From: a virus
DNA: 64,000 nt
IMG/VR virus record: IMGVR_UViG_3300044613_001897
Strand: one strand, 5' to 3'
Part shown: piece after piece, positions 9,772 through 14,495 of the stretch
Numbering within the stretch: position 1 is the first letter of the stretch
Layout: each line of letters begins with the position of its first letter
Notes under the pieces: model-generated
Database searches by the model: none
The model's input: the letters and a program-made list of their open reading frames with translations, nothing else
Told to the model about the DNA's origin: nothing
Made by a program: the position numbers and the translations under genes

Positions 9772-10409
9772 TTGATATTTATTAATTATGCGAACATTAA
9801 CAATATTAGCTACAGAAATCTATCAAAAATTAGGAAAACAATACCCTAATTTAACAGAACGTAAGAAGGCTACTAAACAACATATACTAACAGAAATTTC
9901 ACAATGGGCTATAAAAAAAGGCACATTTAATGATGTTATAGCATTCACGCCGGTTGAATTTAAAGGTACTGCAGATAGCAGCCCATTTGAAGTAAGATTG
10001 GCTTATGATATTGATGATAACTTTTGGGAATTAAAATTTGGAGACTTAAATGCATCTACTCCCGAAGAACAATTTAAGTGGAATGATAAAGATCCATATA
10101 GATTACAAAAGGCGCTATTTCTTCAAACCGTACTAACTAAGGAAATATTACCGTTTATAAAAACTACAAATAGCGAAGGTATAAAATTTCAGCCATATGA
10201 TGGTGATGGATTAGAAGATGAAAGATTAAGTTATTTTCAAAATATGTTTAAAAAATTAAATAAGAATGATTTTGATTTTTCTAAAGGTTATTTAGAAGAG
10301 GATGATACTTGGTATATAACTAAAAAAGTATAATTAATTTAAAATTAAAGTAAACAAATTATTTGGTTTTTTGACAAATTATACTTAGCTTTAAGTATAA
10401 TTAAAAGTT

Positions 10410-11000
10410 ATGATAAAATATTGTAAATCTTGCAATAGTACTATACCAAACGAAAGGTTACGATTATTACCAAACGCTATTCATTGTGTAAACTGCTCTA
10501 CTGTAGATAAAGTATCTGCAATACCTATTATACATCATAAGACAGGTAACGAAATTCAGATAGTTGCTGATCCTGAAGTAGCTGCCGAGTTTCATAGATT
10601 ATCTTCTAGAGTAGGATTTGGCACATTGCGCGGATTAAAAGCTGGTAAGTCTGGTGGCACTGATGTGCGGCAGGTTATAAACAAAACTAAACCTAGAACT
10701 AATGTATTTATTCCTATGGCCGATGAAGAGACTTTCAATAAGTTAGATAAAAAGGTTATGGATGCTTATGATTTACTAGGTAAAGATAGAGCTATGCGGA
10801 TTATACAAGAAGCCGTAACTACTAGATTAGTATCAGAAGGTCAAGGCATTAAACTTAAAAAGATTATAGATGCTCTTTCAGATAATCAAACATTTACAGT
10901 TGGTGTAGAGAAAGAATCTTATGTACCAAAAAATATTAAACAAGATGCTGTTGTATCTAATGATATATCTTATGTATTTAAACATTGGAAAAGAAATTAA
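10410..11000 (+). CDS. TraR/DksA-like C4 zinc-finger protein
   Basis: CKSC..IPNERLRLLP..HCVNC at the N-terminus. Confidence 0.7.
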   Translation: MIKYCKSCNSTIPNERLRLLPNAIHCVNCSTVDKVSAIPIIHHKTGNEIQIVADPEVAAEFHRLSSRVGFGTLRGLKAGKSGGTDVRQVINKTKPRTNVFIPMADEETFNKLDKKVMDAYDLLGKDRAMRIIQEAVTTRLVSEGQGIKLKKIIDALSDNQTFTVGVEKESYVPKNIKQDAVVSNDISYVFKHWKRN

Positions 11001-11201: not shown

Positions 11202-11255
11202 ATATAACGTCCGATGATAAACAATCGTTTTAATGTTGTTTATCATTTGTTATGT
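11202..11255. repeat. attC-like hairpin site 1 (short class, 54 bp)
   Basis: ATATAAC gtccg ATGATAAACAA tcgttttaatg TTGTTTATCAT tt GTTATGT. Confidence 0.85.
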
Positions 11256-11294
11256 TCAGTTTTTATTTGTATTTTTGTAAAAAATTAGAATGTT

Positions 11295-11594
11295 ATGGTA
11301 ATAAAATGTAAAAAATGGGTATTATTTAATATATTGAAGGTTAAAGCACATTTTTTAAGACTCAAACACTTTATAATAACAGGAAAAGATATTGAAAAAC
11401 TCCCATCACCCCAAGAAGGTTATTGTAGAGCTTATTTTTTTGAAATAGAAGGTGATTCATATGTATTGAAACATCACGAAATACCACTTTTTTTAATAGA
11501 AAAGTTCTACGAAGACTTCAATAATAAAAATGGTAAGTTAATGGGTTTGAAAAGGGAAGAAGTTGTTAGGTGGGTTTTAGAAAATAAAAATTGA
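11295..11594 (+). CDS. Cassette 1 gene, hypothetical
   Basis: Single ORF between hairpin sites; its stop lies in the terminal inverted repeat. Confidence 0.75.
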   Translation: MVIKCKKWVLFNILKVKAHFLRLKHFIITGKDIEKLPSPQEGYCRAYFFEIEGDSYVLKHHEIPLFLIEKFYEDFNNKNGKLMGLKREEVVRWVLENKN

Positions 11595-11635
11595 ATATAA
11601 CGGTTGAGGATATAAAATCGTTTTAATGTTTTATA
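11595..11635. repeat. Truncated short-class site fused to site 3
   Basis: ATATAAC ggttg AGGATATAAAA tcgttttaatg TTTTATA runs directly into TTATAAC of the next site. Confidence 0.75.
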
Positions 11636-11752
11636 ACGTTTTGCAGATATACGCAGTTCTAATGAAAAATTAAATAGATATGGAAAACTTAAATGATACA
11701 AACAAACCTTCGAATAACGCAGAACAAGAATTGCGTATATCTGATGTTATAG
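11631..11752. repeat. attC-like hairpin site 3 (long class, 122 bp)
   Basis: ATAAC..CAGATATACGCAgTTCT ... AGAAtTGCGTATATCTG at GTTAT. Confidence 0.85.
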
Positions 11753-11907
11753 GTAGTAAAAAAATCGAATTAACTACTGATGAATTACTTAATTTATTAA
11801 AGGAAGCATATAGAAATGGTTATGCTACCTATGAAATGGCTGATGCTGGATTAGAGCCATACGATGCTGATGGATATGCAAGATGGGTTTTATTAGGTTT
11901 GGACTAA
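11680..11907 (+). CDS. Cassette 2 gene, hypothetical; starts inside the hairpin loop
   Basis: N-terminal ...QELRISDVIGS is encoded by the right arm of site 3. Confidence 0.75.
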   Translation: MENLNDTNKPSNNAEQELRISDVIGSKKIELTTDELLNLLKEAYRNGYATYEMADAGLEPYDADGYARWVLLGLD

Positions 11908-11919
11908 AATTTTTATTAC

Positions 11920-11973
11920 TCATAACGGTTGAGTGTAAAAAATCGTTTTAATGTTTTTTACACTTTGTTATAA
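11920..11973. repeat. attC-like hairpin site 4 (short class, 54 bp)
   Basis: TCATAAC ggttg AGTGTAAAAAA tcgttttaatg TTTTTTACACT tt GTTATAA. Confidence 0.85.
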
Positions 11974-12012
11974 GTATGTATTATTTTTGTTTTACCTTAT
12001 AAAAAAGAAACT

Positions 12013-12165
12013 ATGGAAGAAGAAAAAGTTATTTGTCCGAAATGTGGGAATGAAGAAAATTTCCACTTCAATTACGATTATAGTAAAAAGGAACTACCTA
12101 TAATTGACGTGTTATGTAATGAGTGTGGAGAATTTTTTGAATTAGAAAAATCAAAACAAAAATAA
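12013..12165 (+). CDS. Cassette 3 gene, 50 aa zinc-ribbon protein (not in ORF track)
   Basis: MEEEKVICPKCGNEENFHFNYDYSKKELPIIDVLCNECGEFFELEKSKQK; two CxxC pairs. Confidence 0.8.
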   Translation: MEEEKVICPKCGNEENFHFNYDYSKKELPIIDVLCNECGEFFELEKSKQK

Positions 12166-12171
12166 TATTAC

Positions 12172-12304
12172 TTATAACGTTTCGCAGCTAAACGCTGTTG
12201 CGTAATAAAGCGATAAATGCACAATAAAGTAGATAGGTTTATTAAATAAAAAACAGTTTATTATATGAAAAATCAAAGCAATAGCGATTTATGTGCTGTT
12301 ATGG
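12172..12304. repeat. attC-like hairpin site 5 (long class, 133 bp)
   Basis: ATAAC gtttc GCAgcTAAACGCTgTTGC ... GCAAtAGCGaTTTAtgTGC t GTTAT. Confidence 0.8.
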
Positions 12305-12627
12305 CTATGTTGCCTACGCACGGATTCCACAAGACATTGGGAAAAATAGAAATTTTAGGGGTAAGAGTAAAATCAACAACATCAAACAACACTATGTACA
12401 TGACTATAATTGATGGTGATATGTTGTGGGTTTATGATTATGAAACCGAATTAGATTTTACAAAAAAAGATTATGACAATAAGTTACTTCAAGAGTTCAC
12501 ACCTAAAATTTATGAATGGATTATGACGCCACCATTTAATTTAGAACACGCTCAACACGGAATGGCTTGTGAAAAGTTTGGTGATGTCCGTTCTGAATTT
12601 TTGCAGAAACGCTCGTTAGGCAATTAG
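12265..12627 (+). CDS. Cassette 4 gene, hypothetical; in-frame start inside the hairpin loop
   Basis: MKNQSNSDLCAVMA is encoded by the loop and right arm of site 5. Confidence 0.75.
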   Translation: MKNQSNSDLCAVMAMLPTHGFHKTLGKIEILGVRVKSTTSNNTMYMTIIDGDMLWVYDYETELDFTKKDYDNKLLQEFTPKIYEWIMTPPFNLEHAQHGMACEKFGDVRSEFLQKRSLGN

Positions 12628-12681
12628 CCATAACGTCTGATGATAAACAATCGTTTTAATGTTGTTTATCATTTGTTATAG
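12628..12681. repeat. attC-like hairpin site 6 (short class, 54 bp)
   Basis: Core differs from site 1 at one base (GTCTG vs GTCCG). Confidence 0.85.
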
Positions 12682-12724
12682 GTAGTTTCATTTTTTATTT
12701 TACAAATTATAAATTTTCATAAAT

Positions 12725-13024
12725 ATGACAGAAGAACGAATAAAAGAATATGTAGTAAATGGTGGAAAACTTTTTACTATCAAAACAATTGACACTATTA
12801 GGGATGGTGGAACAAAAGTATTGGACACAACTGGTGGTAAATTTTACATAAATAAGGATAGTAAAAAGTTTCATTCTGGTTACTCACCAAGTGATGAAAA
12901 TTTAATAACAGATTTTTTGTTGGTAGAATATCTGATTGAAAGAATTGAAACATACATTAAACGATGTGACGAAGATTTGGAACGAAATAAAAATCTGTTA
13001 ATAGAAATTAAAAATAAAAAATGA
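12725..13024 (+). CDS. Cassette 5 gene, hypothetical
   Basis: Single ORF between site 6 and the integrase-proximal site. Confidence 0.75.
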   Translation: MTEERIKEYVVNGGKLFTIKTIDTIRDGGTKVLDTTGGKFYINKDSKKFHSGYSPSDENLITDFLLVEYLIERIETYIKRCDEDLERNKNLLIEIKNKK

Positions 13025-13030
13025 TATTAC

Positions 13031-13088
13031 CTATAACTCTTATATATACGCACCACAATATAATCAATTAATAATCAATAAGTTATAA
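13031..13088. other. Putative attI-like primary recombination site with IHF-like box
   Basis: CTATAAC without the array hairpin, directly upstream of the integrase ATG; contains AATCAATAAGTTA, matching WATCAANNNNTTR. Confidence 0.6.
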
Positions 13089-13886
13089 ATGCAAGTTCTT
13101 AAAAATTTTCAAGAAAAATTAAGATATAAAAACTATTCTCAGAGTAGTATAAATTTATATACATCATATTTAAAAAATTTTATCGAATATGGTGGGATAA
13201 AAGACCCATACCAAATTAGAACACAACAAATAGTATCGTTTCTTGAAAAATATCCTTACACATCATGCAGCCAACAAAACCAATATATAGGTGCTCTAAA
13301 ACTTTTTGCTAAATATATTTTAAATAAAAAAGACATACATTTAACAAAAATAGAAAGACCAAAATCAGAAAAGAAACTTCCAAGAGTTATTGATGGTGAG
13401 TTTATAAAAGAAAAACTAAACCAAATTGAAAATCTTAAACACAAAGCAATTCTTACGCTAACTTATTCAGTTGGATTAAGAGTATCTGAAATTGTTAACC
13501 TAAAAATTGAAGATATTGATTCAAAAAGAATGCTTATTCATATCAAAAATGCAAAAGGTAGAAAAGACAGAATAGTTCCTCTTTCGCCAAATGTACTTAA
13601 TCTGTTAAGAGATTATTTCAAAGAATATAAACCAATTGAATACCTCTTTAATGGTCAATTTACAAACCAATATTCAATAGGTAGCTGCCAGAAAATATAT
13701 AAGAAATATATTGACAATACATCATCAATCCATACCTTGCGACATTCATCTTTTACTAACTTATTAGAAAGCGGAACTGATTTACGAATAATACAAAAGA
13801 TTGCAGGACATTCATCATCGAAAACTACTGAGATATACACTCATGTATCTAATCAATTATTATCTTCTGTTAATTTACCTATTTAA
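13089..13886 (+). CDS. Tyrosine recombinase (integron-integrase-like, short form)
   Basis: N-terminal SAM-like domain, KLPRVI, GLRVSE (R), AKGRKDR (K), HTLRHS (HxxR), GHSS..TTEIY (H,Y): full catalytic set. Confidence 0.93.
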   Translation: MQVLKNFQEKLRYKNYSQSSINLYTSYLKNFIEYGGIKDPYQIRTQQIVSFLEKYPYTSCSQQNQYIGALKLFAKYILNKKDIHLTKIERPKSEKKLPRVIDGEFIKEKLNQIENLKHKAILTLTYSVGLRVSEIVNLKIEDIDSKRMLIHIKNAKGRKDRIVPLSPNVLNLLRDYFKEYKPIEYLFNGQFTNQYSIGSCQKIYKKYIDNTSSIHTLRHSSFTNLLESGTDLRIIQKIAGHSSSKTTEIYTHVSNQLLSSVNLPI

Positions 13887-14373
13887 TAGGCAGAATTTCC
13901 AAATTATATACAGGGTGAATCTCAGTCCAGTTATGTCTTTTGTCATAAACAAATGCACCAGTAACTATAACTTTATCCCCCTTCTTAGGTACTAGAATAG
14001 GATTGTCAAACATATGGCAGATAGGAAATATTGTACTATGTCCACAAACTATCTCTGCTACTAAGCATGAATCTTGTTTGGTGTAATTTTTATTAACTAA
14101 ATATACCTTTTGAGAACTAACCGAATCTAACTTTAATTTTATATGAATATCACCATCAAATGAATTTTCAATATGATGTATAACACCAGACACAGTTATA
14201 TTATGATTAATTACATGAAGTCTTTTATTGTCATATACCTTTTGCCATAACCTAAATTGATGTGTTGTTAACGAATCAGTATTTGTATTGAATGCTAGGA
14301 GAAATGATAGAAGTAATGGTGACATAAAATAGGTTATACAGATAAGTATAAATAGTAAAAACTTTATGTTCAA
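13879..14373 (-). CDS. Secreted OB-fold-like protein
   Basis: Signal peptide; DGDIHI, LVAEI, VTG, EIHPV pattern; the only convincing minus-strand gene in the window. Confidence 0.55.
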   Translation of the reverse strand: MNIKFLLFILICITYFMSPLLLSFLLAFNTNTDSLTTHQFRLWQKVYDNKRLHVINHNITVSGVIHHIENSFDGDIHIKLKLDSVSSQKVYLVNKNYTKQDSCLVAEIVCGHSTIFPICHMFDNPILVPKKGDKVIVTGAFVYDKRHNWTEIHPVYNLEILPIK

Positions 14374-14495
14374 AAATATTAAAAATTTATTGGTAATTTA
14401 ATCTTTATTTCTTATATTAATGTATTAATAGAGCAGAAACTATTTAAAAAACGGGAGTAACTGAAAATCCTTAAGAGTAGGACAAATAAAATCGT

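What the first reader, a model, noticed from the sequence alone, without database searches (positions are those of the whole stretch)
11631..12304. Recombination hairpins contain the start codon and N-terminus of their gene
Seen: ORFs 11680 and 12265 start within the loops of the long sites and read in frame through the right arm and the GTTAT box (ELRISDVIGS; DLCAVMA). Inference: the site travels with the downstream gene, so the crossover is at the left (TAAC) box. That makes this a site-first cassette in which one sequence serves as both att hairpin and coding/translation-initiation DNA. It may also leave recognisable LxIxxV-type N-terminal peptides on unrelated small phage proteins.
Basis: partly seen in the sequence, partly recalled or inferred. 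Interest (0 to 1): 0.75.

Follow-up and report, generated by a model that had tools for sequence, protein, structure and literature searches.

The report
Phage genes starting inside recombination hairpins
In this large phage of Bacteroidota-type bacteria, two small genes begin inside the folded DNA hairpins that serve as cut-and-paste sites of an integron-like gene-cassette array, so one stretch of DNA is at once recombination site, translation start and the first ~20 codons of the protein.

Summary
Confirmed. ORFs 11680 and 12265 start in the loops of two long TAAC...GTTA hairpins and read in frame through the right arm and the GTTA box. This is a family-wide design, not chance. In 141 related phage loci, 177 of 246 sites of this length class have such a start (39 on the reverse strand, 70 with shuffled loops).

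The hairpins are sites of an integron-like cassette array. It ends at a lone TAAC next to a Xer-type tyrosine recombinase (13089-13886) that lacks the integron-integrase insertion.

- **Main crossover at the left TAAC box.**
  - A 99% identical phage diverges exactly there.
  - The 11680 cassette recurs in four contexts with homology running from TAAC to TAAC.
  - Shared hairpins are linked to the downstream flank only (44 pairs against 0).
- **Folded strand.** It is the sense strand (G.T 331 against A.C 42).
- **Peptide motif.** Invariant arm bases produce L-x-I-x-x-V-x-x-S, found on unrelated proteins.
- **Caveat 1.** The same protein bodies occur under other heads, or none, joined at the GTT codon, so the right box is a second exchange point.
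- **Caveat 2.** ATG 12301 is not excluded for the second gene.

This scan has made the same observation on other phage DNA. I found no published description.

The parts
11205..11252 (+). Short-class (48 nt) hairpin site with a non-coding loop (TCGTTTTAATG). It heads the cassette with ORF 11295-11594.
11598..11633 (+). Truncated short-class site (TAAC, left arm, loop, part of the right arm), fused to the next long site.
   Evidence: it does not fold on its own
11634..11757 (+). Long site 1: TAAC box 11634-11637, 6-nt spacer, left arm 11644-11660, loop, right arm 11727-11743, GTTA box 11746-11749 with the outer box GTTATAGGTAGT reaching 11757.
   Evidence: covariation in the site family
11680..11907 (+). 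Cassette gene (75 aa). The start codon is in the loop of site 1. Codons 1-23 (MENLNDTNKPSNNAEQELRISDV) are encoded by the loop, right arm and box. The conserved body (SKKIELTTDELLNLLKEAYRNGY...) has no ATG of its own before codon 53.
11923..11970 (+). Short-class site. Its TAAC (11923-11926) is the 3' boundary of the 11680 cassette. It heads the cassette with ORF 12013-12165 (zinc-ribbon-like, 50 aa).
12175..12301 (+). Long site 2: TAAC 12175-12178, bulged arms (about 12183-12203 and 12276-12297), GTTA 12298-12301.
12265..12627 (+). Cassette gene (120 aa). The start codon is in the loop of site 2. The head MKNQSNSDLCAV is followed by the conserved body MAMLPTHGFHKTLGKIEILGVRVK... An alternative start, ATG 12301, overlaps the box (GTTATG).
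12631..12678 (+). Short-class site. Its TAAC is the 3' boundary of the 12265 cassette. It heads the last cassette (ORF 12725-13024), whose two ends, 12675-12701 and 13011-13037, are 27-nt inverted repeats.
   Evidence: (pair I1)
13026..13088 (+). End of the array: outer box ATTACCTA plus the lone TAAC (13034-13037), then an attI-like junction with no partner arm. From the TAAC onward the sequence is shared with G001 (match 99% identical over window 13026-14400).
13089..13886 (+). Tyrosine recombinase, 265 aa, XerA/XerC-like, without the integron-integrase insertion.

Best explanation
The two long hairpins are attC-like recombination sites of a phage-borne, integron-like cassette array, presumably served by the adjacent Xer-type tyrosine recombinase.

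A cassette runs from the C of one TAAC box to the TAA of the next. Each cassette therefore carries its hairpin at its 5' end, ahead of its gene.

The folded strand is the sense (+) strand. By analogy with integrons, it is cut at the AAC at the 5' base of the hairpin. Seen from the recombinase gene, the strand, the crossover position and the attI side match a classical integron. Only the cargo genes are flipped, so they point towards the recombinase and begin inside the site.

In the long site classes the loop holds an A-rich translation-initiation region and the ATG. The first 12-25 codons are encoded by the loop, the right arm and the GTTA box. Invariant bases of the right arm and box impose L-x-I-x-x-V-x-x-S on the peptide.

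The head is a portable module. It normally moves with its gene. It is also found on unrelated bodies, and the same bodies occur under other heads or none, joined at the GTT codon. That points to a second exchange point or to the way new cassettes are made.

Shown here by sequence comparison: the anatomy, covariation, cassette boundaries, strand bias, start context, and the head/body combinations.

Inferred, not shown: that the recombinase catalyses the exchange, that the substrate is single-stranded DNA, and that translation really starts in the loop.
For: **Anatomy.**

**Array next to the recombinase.** 567 sites lie upstream of the recombinase gene and 5 downstream in 141 loci, all detected on the gene's strand.

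**Hairpin is real.** RNAalifold on 60 sites gives 24 pairs, 17 of them with compensatory double changes.

**Folded strand.** G.T 331 against A.C 42 in the arms, in all length classes.

**Crossover at TAAC.**
- G001 is 99% identical over window 13026-14400, from the outer box and last TAAC on, and has unrelated cassettes before it.
- The same cassettes in different arrays have homology from TAAC to TAAC. In some pairs an attC follows in one locus and the attI-like sequence follows in the other.
- The 11680 cassette occurs in four contexts.
- Hairpin linkage is to the downstream flank only in 44 pairs and to the upstream flank only in 0.

**Circular form.** The 8 nt after GTTA pair with the 8 nt before the next TAAC in 185 of 394 units, but with those before the same site's TAAC in only 2 of 394.

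**Start in the loop.**
- 177 of 246 sites, against 39 on the reverse strand and 70 with shuffled loops.
- Start-context score: in-loop ATGs median +2.1, window genes +0.6, internal ATGs -3.9.
- No nearby alternative ATG in 58 of 90 genes.
- 25 or more database variants of the window's own head keep the frame.

**Motif.** L at -5 in 74%, I at -3 in 62%, S at +3 in 69% of 123 heads. The motif sits on 31 unrelated bodies.
Against: - There is no experimental evidence for recombination, for a circular intermediate or for the translation start.
- The recombinase lacks the I2 insertion that integron integrases are thought to need for hairpin substrates.
- The extra unpaired bases lie on the 5' arm next to the cut box. 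From memory, this is the opposite arm from the extrahelical bases of attC.
- The G.T bias would also arise from selection on mRNA folding.
- Site 2 folds weakly by itself (z = -1.4). Its gene has an in-frame ATG at the box (12301), conserved as MAM in all homologues.
- Most pairs with similar hairpins (414 of 483) share neither flank. The same bodies carry different heads. So hairpin and gene are not always co-inherited.
- The pair counts are not phylogenetically independent.
Confidence: 0.75

Rival explanations
1. The hairpins are recombination sites, but translation starts at or after the GTTA box (ATG 12301 for the second gene). The in-loop reading frames would then be untranslated, or only short leader ORFs that help downstream initiation.
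For: - GTTATG occurs in 16 of 90 loop-start genes, including 12265.
- All homologues of 12265 keep MAM right after the box.
- Untagged homologues of the 11680 body exist.
- 28 of 104 in-loop ORFs (first 80 loci) end just after the box, ahead of a separate start.
Against: - ATG 12301 and 12307 have poor start contexts (-3.8 and -5.1), against +4.0 for ATG 12265, and would sit in the box stem.
- The body of 11680 has no ATG before codon 53, and TTG 11731 scores -2.7.
- 58 of 90 bodies have no start of their own nearby.
- Open frames through the arm are far more frequent than in the controls.
Confidence: 0.12
2. The hairpins are mainly RNA or regulatory elements, such as terminators or start-codon-presenting stem-loops like the PeSL promoter/stem-loop cassettes of T4-type phages. 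Cassette exchange would then come from the phage's general homologous recombination at these repeats, without the neighbouring recombinase.
For: - The genome is T4-like (earlier notes).
- PeSLs flank ORFan genes and give mini-circles without a dedicated recombinase (PMC2839356).
- The G.T bias fits RNA folding as well.
- Short-class sites are often followed by a TAnnTTT[GA] box, in 39% against 12% background.
Against: - Breakpoints fall at one 4-nt box even where the flanking arms are unrelated.
- The arrays always abut the recombinase gene on one side, with an attI-like junction.
- The arms differ between sites, so they offer little homology for general recombination, yet the structure is kept by covariation.
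- The ends of a cassette pair with each other, not with their neighbours.
Confidence: 0.08
3. The cassettes are classical gene-first cassettes. The main crossover would be at the right-hand G/TTA, so each hairpin belongs to the upstream gene. The in-frame heads would be fused to whatever gene lands downstream.
For: - The same bodies sit under different heads, with the junction at the GTT codon.
- In one pair, homology starts at TTGTTAT (L005 against L047).
- 414 hairpin-sharing pairs have unrelated downstream flanks.
Against: - Hairpins are linked to the upstream flank only in 0 pairs, against 44 for the downstream flank.
- The array ends at a lone TAAC with no hairpin before the attI-like sequence.
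- The 11680 cassette keeps its hairpin in three of its four contexts (window, L087, L089), each with a different upstream gene.
Confidence: 0.05

Closest known systems
Integrons (IntI integrase, attI, attC-bounded cassettes; sedentary chromosomal integrons)
   Same: - An array of small cassettes on one side of a tyrosine recombinase gene, with an attI-like junction.
- Imperfect hairpin sites closed by AAC/GTT boxes, with a variable loop and arms kept complementary by covariation.
- A strand bias in folding.
- A crossover at the AAC at the 5' base of the folded strand.
- Cassette ends that pair only in the circular form.
- Site families shared by unrelated cargo, as with the Vibrio cholerae repeats.

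Sources: PMC8946536 for the integron features.
   Different: - The recombinase is Xer-like and lacks the I2 insertion (PMC7790495).
- Cargo genes lie on the folded strand and point towards the recombinase, so the site is at the 5' end of its gene.
- The site holds the start codon and N-terminus instead of following a promoterless ORF.
- The spacer asymmetry lies on the other arm.
- The host is a large lytic-type T4-like phage.
ORF-11, ORF-17 and ORF-18 of attI1 in class 1 integrons (translational coupling across the crossover point)
   Same: A short ORF with its own initiation region lies in a recombination site, reads across the crossover point into the cassette and supports expression of cargo that lacks a start region (PMC8876359). 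The 28 short leader ORFs that end just after the GTTA box resemble this.
   Different: - There it is a single fixed attI site and a non-fused leader peptide.
- Here it is every long attC-like site, the ORF usually continues in frame into the cargo protein, and the head moves with the cassette.
PeSL promoter/stem-loop cassettes of T4-type phages
   Same: Small ORFan genes in hyperplastic regions of T4-like genomes are flanked by conserved stem-loop modules that carry expression signals. The modules mediate shuffling and mini-circle formation (PMC2839356, PMC4122927).
   Different: - PeSLs recombine by homology over a zone and have no dedicated recombinase.
- Here the breakpoints are at a fixed 4-nt box, a recombinase gene abuts the array, and the arms vary in sequence.
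attC clusters without integrase (CALINs) reported in phage genomes
   Same: attC-type hairpins between small genes of virulent phages, including a Polaribacter phage and an uncultured myovirus (PMC9892861).
   Different: - Those were found with the IntegronFinder attC model, treated as classical attC sites and tested with IntI1.
- No Xer-type recombinase, site-first orientation or in-site gene starts were described.
- I could not test whether any of them belong to this family.

Membership tests
Integron | IntI-type integrase with the extra I2 alpha-helix insertion | tested here: not met
   The query aligns to VchIntIA (2a3v) residues 5-178 and 259-315 with its own residues 3-174 and 207-263, so about 48 residues of IntI are missing. 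TIGR02249 scores 153 bits against a cut-off of 265. The best family is archaeal XerA-type NF040815, also below its cut-off. The best PDB match is XerA 4a8e.
Integron | attC-type site: an imperfect hairpin with conserved AAC/GTT boxes at its base and a variable terminal loop | tested here: met
   TAAC...GTTA boxes are invariant. There are 24 consensus pairs, 17 with compensatory changes, in 60 sites. Length classes are 48, ~88, ~126 and ~190 nt.
Integron | One strand is the recombinogenic folded strand | tested here: inconclusive
   G.T 331 against A.C 42 shows that the + strand is the one selected to fold. Whether it folds as ssDNA or as mRNA cannot be told from sequence.
Integron | Crossover within the AAC/GTT triplet of one box, which defines the cassette boundaries | tested here: met
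   Homology breaks at TAAC in G001 against the window, in shared cassettes and at the array/attI junction. The position within TAAC is not resolvable.
Integron | attI next to the integrase gene, array on one side only | tested here: met
   567 sites upstream against 5 downstream of the recombinase gene in 141 loci. A lone TAAC is followed by a conserved junction.
Integron | Cassette is a promoterless ORF followed by its attC, expressed from Pc in the platform | tested here: not met
   The hairpin is linked to the downstream gene (44 against 0). Genes point towards the recombinase and start in, or just after, their own site.
Integron | Extrahelical bases and an unpaired central spacer as in attC | tested here: inconclusive
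   There is a constant asymmetry: the left spacer is 3-4 nt longer than the right. There is also an invariant G.T pair in the arm. Both are placed differently from what I recall of attC, and no protein-DNA data exist.
PeSL cassettes of T4-type phages | A sigma-70-type early promoter plus a terminator stem-loop, with exchange by homology and no dedicated recombinase | tested here: not met
   Breakpoints are fixed at one box, a recombinase abuts the array, and the arms vary. A promoter-like box is enriched only after short-class sites.
CALIN (attC cluster lacking an integrase) as defined by IntegronFinder | At least two hits to the attC covariance model and no IntI nearby | not testable with these tools

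The most novel reading that the evidence does not exclude
The long hairpin sites may be more than boundaries of mobile genes. They may act as a natural in-frame protein-assembly device. A portable head (promoter-proximal start region plus a 15-25-residue leader ending in L-x-I-x-x-V) would be joined at the fixed GTT codon to start-less cargo. This would be the way new phage cassettes are born and expressed, and possibly a way to give many unrelated small proteins a common N-terminal tag with a function of its own. All of it would be run by a compact Xer-type recombinase that handles folded single strands without the integron-integrase I2 helix.
Probability: 0.25. Interest if true: 0.85.

Novelty: new variant of a known kind. 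Interest (0 to 1): 0.72.

Why it matters
- **Recombinase chemistry.** Integrons are the textbook case of recombination on folded single strands, and their integrase is thought to need a special insertion for it. Here a much simpler Xer-type enzyme sits beside hundreds of attC-like hairpins in large uncultured phages (219 relatives of the recombinase in IMG/VR).
- **Three functions in one sequence.** The sites are built the other way round with respect to their genes. The same ~125 nt must fold, be cut, start translation and encode a tolerable peptide. This is an unusually tight overlap of functions and can be tested directly.
- **Annotation.** It explains a recurrent N-terminal motif on otherwise unrelated phage ORFans, which matters for annotation and protein clustering.
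- **Origin of cassettes.** It offers a handle on the unsolved question of how gene cassettes acquire their recombination sites.
- **Phage accessory genes.** It shows a route by which lytic phages swap small accessory genes, nearly all of unknown function.

Tried and rejected
- **Codon-position test.** I counted substitutions by codon position in loop-coded segments of homologous pairs. Only one usable pair existed in 80 loci, so there is no result.
- **Cassette-unit comparison by ORF body.** Too few homologous pairs (9) to be informative. I replaced it with the hairpin-based linkage test.
- **MFE-based site detectors.** The first, with RNA energy parameters, missed the bulged site 2. The same detector with DNA parameters returned nothing, and test folds of the known sites showed its cut-off was too strict. 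I replaced them with an arm-duplex score.
- **Cultured relatives.** The best recombinase match among 50,697 phage records is 38% identical (Polaribacter Freya and Cellulophaga Ingeline phages). The Freya_10 region upstream of its integrase has no TAAC/GTTA hairpins.
- **Near-DNA search in phages.** One weak hit only, to the last cassette gene in a 462-kb uncultured phage.
- **Promoter in the loops.** I saw no convincing Bacteroidetes-type -33/-7 pair upstream of the in-loop ATGs, only an A-rich initiation context. A TAnnTTT[GA] box is enriched only after short-class sites.
- **Extra candidate sites.** 10317-10410 and 12906-13000 fold weakly and lack the family's features, so I treat them as chance.
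- **Literature.** Searches for attC-like or integron-like phage systems found no description of this one.
- **Own genome.** The window's own assembly is not held, so it could not be searched.

Full report
**The observation**

Between 11200 and 13040 the window holds a row of small + strand ORFs separated by hairpin elements. Each element opens with TAAC and closes with GTTA.

- Three elements are 48 nt long with a conserved non-coding loop: 11205-11252, 11923-11970 and 12631-12678.
- One is a truncated copy (11598-11633).
- Two are long: 11634-11749 and 12175-12301.

In both long elements an ATG lies in the loop (11680 and 12265). The frame stays open through the right arm and the GTTA box into a 75-aa and a 120-aa ORF.

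Site 1 has 17-nt arms that are 94% complementary and folds better than shuffles (z = -2.6). Site 2 is more bulged and is convincing only as a member of the family.

**What the elements are**

Directly after the last cassette comes a lone ATTACCTATAAC (13026-13037) with no partner arm. After 51 nt of spacer comes a 265-aa tyrosine recombinase (13089-13886), which carries Phage_integrase and SAM_4 domains.

The recombinase is closest to archaeal XerA-type models and to IntI, but falls below the cut-off of each. Its best solved relative is Pyrococcus XerA. Against VchIntIA it aligns on both sides of a gap of about 48 residues, where IntI carries its specific insertion. It is therefore not an integron integrase by the usual criterion (PMC7790495).

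The protein has 219 relatives in IMG/VR. I fetched 141 loci in all.

- An arm-duplex detector for TAAC...GTTA hairpins finds 567 sites in the 570 kb upstream of the recombinase genes and 5 in the 742 kb downstream. The scan was on the gene's strand.
- Sites fall into length classes of 48, ~88, ~126 and ~190 nt.
- Sixty sites of the ~126-nt class give a consensus hairpin of 24 pairs. Seventeen of these pairs show compensatory double changes. The boxes, one T.A pair and one G.T pair are invariant.
- Mismatches in the arms are G.T 331 times and A.C 42 times, in every length class. The + strand, which is the sense strand of the cassette genes, is therefore the strand selected to fold.
- The left spacer is consistently 3-4 nt longer than the right one.

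**Where the crossover is**

Four lines of evidence point to the left TAAC box.

1. The nearest held virus record (G001) matches the window at 99% over 13026-14400. Within that match the only visible difference near the start is TA against GC in the outer box, and from the last TAAC on the sequence shown is identical. Upstream it carries three quite different cassettes, all with long sites whose ORFs start in the loop.
2. Cassettes shared between different arrays have homology that begins at the TAAC of the hairpin ahead of the gene and ends at the next TAAC. In several pairs that TAAC is followed by another hairpin in one locus and by the attI-like sequence in the other. An example is L017 against L028, 99.9% identical over 960 nt.
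3. The window's own 11680 cassette occurs on metagenome contigs L087, L089 and L090 with different upstream and downstream neighbours. In L087 and L089 the boundaries are TAAC...TAAC. In L090 the left arm is replaced and only the right boundary is at TAAC.
4. I took long hairpins at least 85% identical between loci. The downstream 120 nt alone is also shared in 44 pairs, the upstream 120 nt alone in 0, both in 25, and neither in 414. Unrelated flanks never exceeded 68% identity in 400 random pairs. These pairs are not phylogenetically independent, but the direction is unanimous.

A further signature concerns the cassette ends. The 8 nt after GTTA are complementary to the 8 nt before the next TAAC in 185 of 394 units (at least 7 of 8 positions). 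They are complementary to the 8 nt before the TAAC of the same site in only 2 of 394. The two ends of a cassette therefore match each other and not their neighbours, as expected if the unit also exists as a circle. In the window, 12675-12701 and 13011-13037 form such a pair (27 nt, 93%).

Turned so that the recombinase gene points away from the array, the folded strand, the cut box and the attI side are those of a classical integron (PMC8946536). What differs is that the cargo genes are inverted. They lie on the folded strand, point towards the recombinase and start in the site.

**Whether translation starts in the loop**

- Among unique sites of the ~126-nt class, 177 of 246 have an in-loop ATG that is open through the arm and box, and 138 of these run on for 45 codons or more. 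Among longer sites the figure is 21 of 23. The reverse strand gives 39 and 2. Shuffled loops give 70 and 7.
- The 48-nt and ~88-nt classes show no enrichment. Their genes start about 40 nt after the box.
- I built a start-context matrix from the 40 long ORFs of the window. In-loop ATGs score a median of +2.1, the genes themselves +0.6 (leave-one-out) and internal ATGs -3.9.
- In the window, ATG 11680 scores +4.5 and ATG 12265 scores +4.0. The alternatives TTG 11731, ATG 12301 and ATG 12307 score -2.7, -3.8 and -5.1.
- In 58 of 90 loop-start genes there is no in-frame ATG within 15 codons after the box. The conserved body of the 11680 protein has none before codon 53.
- Twenty-five or more database variants of the window's head (MENL[NK]NTDKTSENAEKELRISDVIGS) differ by amino-acid substitutions but keep the frame.
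- For 12265 an ATG at the box (GTTATG) is conserved in all homologues, so a second start cannot be excluded there.
- In the first 80 loci, 28 of the 104 in-loop ORFs are short and stop just after the box, 5-60 nt ahead of a separate start. This recalls the ORF-11 coupling at attI1 (PMC8876359).

**The peptide motif**

In 123 heads that read GTT as a codon, L stands at -5 in 74%, I at -3 in 62% and S at +3 in 69%. These positions correspond to the invariant TT and A of the right arm, the GTTA box and the outer box GGTAGT.

The x-L-x-I-S-(D)-V tag sits on 32 proteins that form 31 unrelated clusters.

**A complication**

The homologues of both window genes show the same conserved body under several different heads, or under none.

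- The 11680 body occurs with ...ELRISDV...NLNISDV...KLHISDV and ...QLNIGAV heads, and with short untagged N-termini.
- The 12265 body (MAMLP...) occurs with at least eight heads.
- The junction is within a codon of the GTT.

Conversely, most near-identical hairpins sit on unrelated bodies (414 pairs). There are two possible readings:

- the right box is a second exchange point, for instance through recombination of the other strand, as occurs at low rates in integrons;
- heads are copied onto new genes when cassettes are made, the unsolved 'cassette genesis' step.

I cannot separate these readings or give rates.

**Cargo, context and prior knowledge**

- Of 140 cassette proteins, only about ten match a Pfam family, among them a DNA methylase, an RNA ligase and an exonuclease.
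- No cultured phage has a recombinase more than 38% identical.
- The literature held here describes classical integron parts and attC clusters in some phages (PMC9892861) and PeSL cassettes in T4-type phages (PMC2839356). It does not describe this system.
- Earlier follow-ups in this scan reported the same phenomenon on other phage genomes. I read them after my main analyses, and my results agree with them.

**Verdict**

There are two qualifications: the right box is a second exchange point, and the start of the second gene is ambiguous. Recombinase activity, a single-stranded substrate and the translation start itself remain inferences.

Noticed in passing
alignment A2, columns 27/141 and 18/150 (in the window: long sites 11634-11749 and 12175-12301): In all 60 aligned ~126-nt sites one arm position is an invariant G.T pair and another an invariant T.A pair, while the surrounding pairs covary freely. 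This is a candidate recognition feature for the recombinase, and it is the source of the Leu and Ile of the peptide motif.
   Followed up: partly
window 11246-11277, 11964-11996; related loci: Short-class sites mostly end in TTTGTTA (44 of 59). In 39%, against 12% background, a TAnnTTT[GA] box follows about 11-22 nt after the box. The TTTG overlapping the recombination box may be the -33 element of a Bacteroidetes-type promoter carried by the cassette.
   Followed up: partly
L049:3718-3900, L012:4822-5015, L022:2126-2305 and others: About a quarter of the in-loop ORFs are 20-30-codon leaders that stop just after the GTTA box, 5-60 nt before a separate cargo start codon. They may be out-of-frame head/body joins, or ORF-11-like translational coupling.
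   Followed up: partly
L090:1060-1190: A copy of the 11680 cassette in which the TAAC box and most of the left arm are replaced by unrelated sequence, next to a 360-aa ATPase-like gene. It looks like a decayed, immobilised cassette, probably at the distal end of an array.
   Followed up: no
L084:1114-1243 and L085:1-105: Upstream of a head/body variant of the 11680 gene the left arm is atypical, and (seen in L084) the sequence begins with what looks like the 3' end of a tRNA gene (GGTTCGAATCC...CCA).
   Followed up: no
window 11598-11637: A short-class site stops inside its right arm (TTTTATA) and runs straight into the TAAC of long site 1. It does not fold alone. It looks like the scar of an off-target or microhomology event.
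   Followed up: partly
(75% identical), without a recombinase gene, lies about 8 kb from the array in the nearest relative.
   Followed up: partly
L083 (Polaribacter phage Freya_10, 1-4962): Ten Freya phage records place a 38%-identical integrase between 68 and 4165 nt from the record start, with small hypothetical genes upstream. No TAAC/GTTA hairpins were found there.
   Followed up: partly
window 12013-12165: The cassette gene between the two long sites encodes a 50-aa CxxC...CxxC zinc-ribbon-like protein, with weak sub-threshold Pfam matches only.
   Followed up: no
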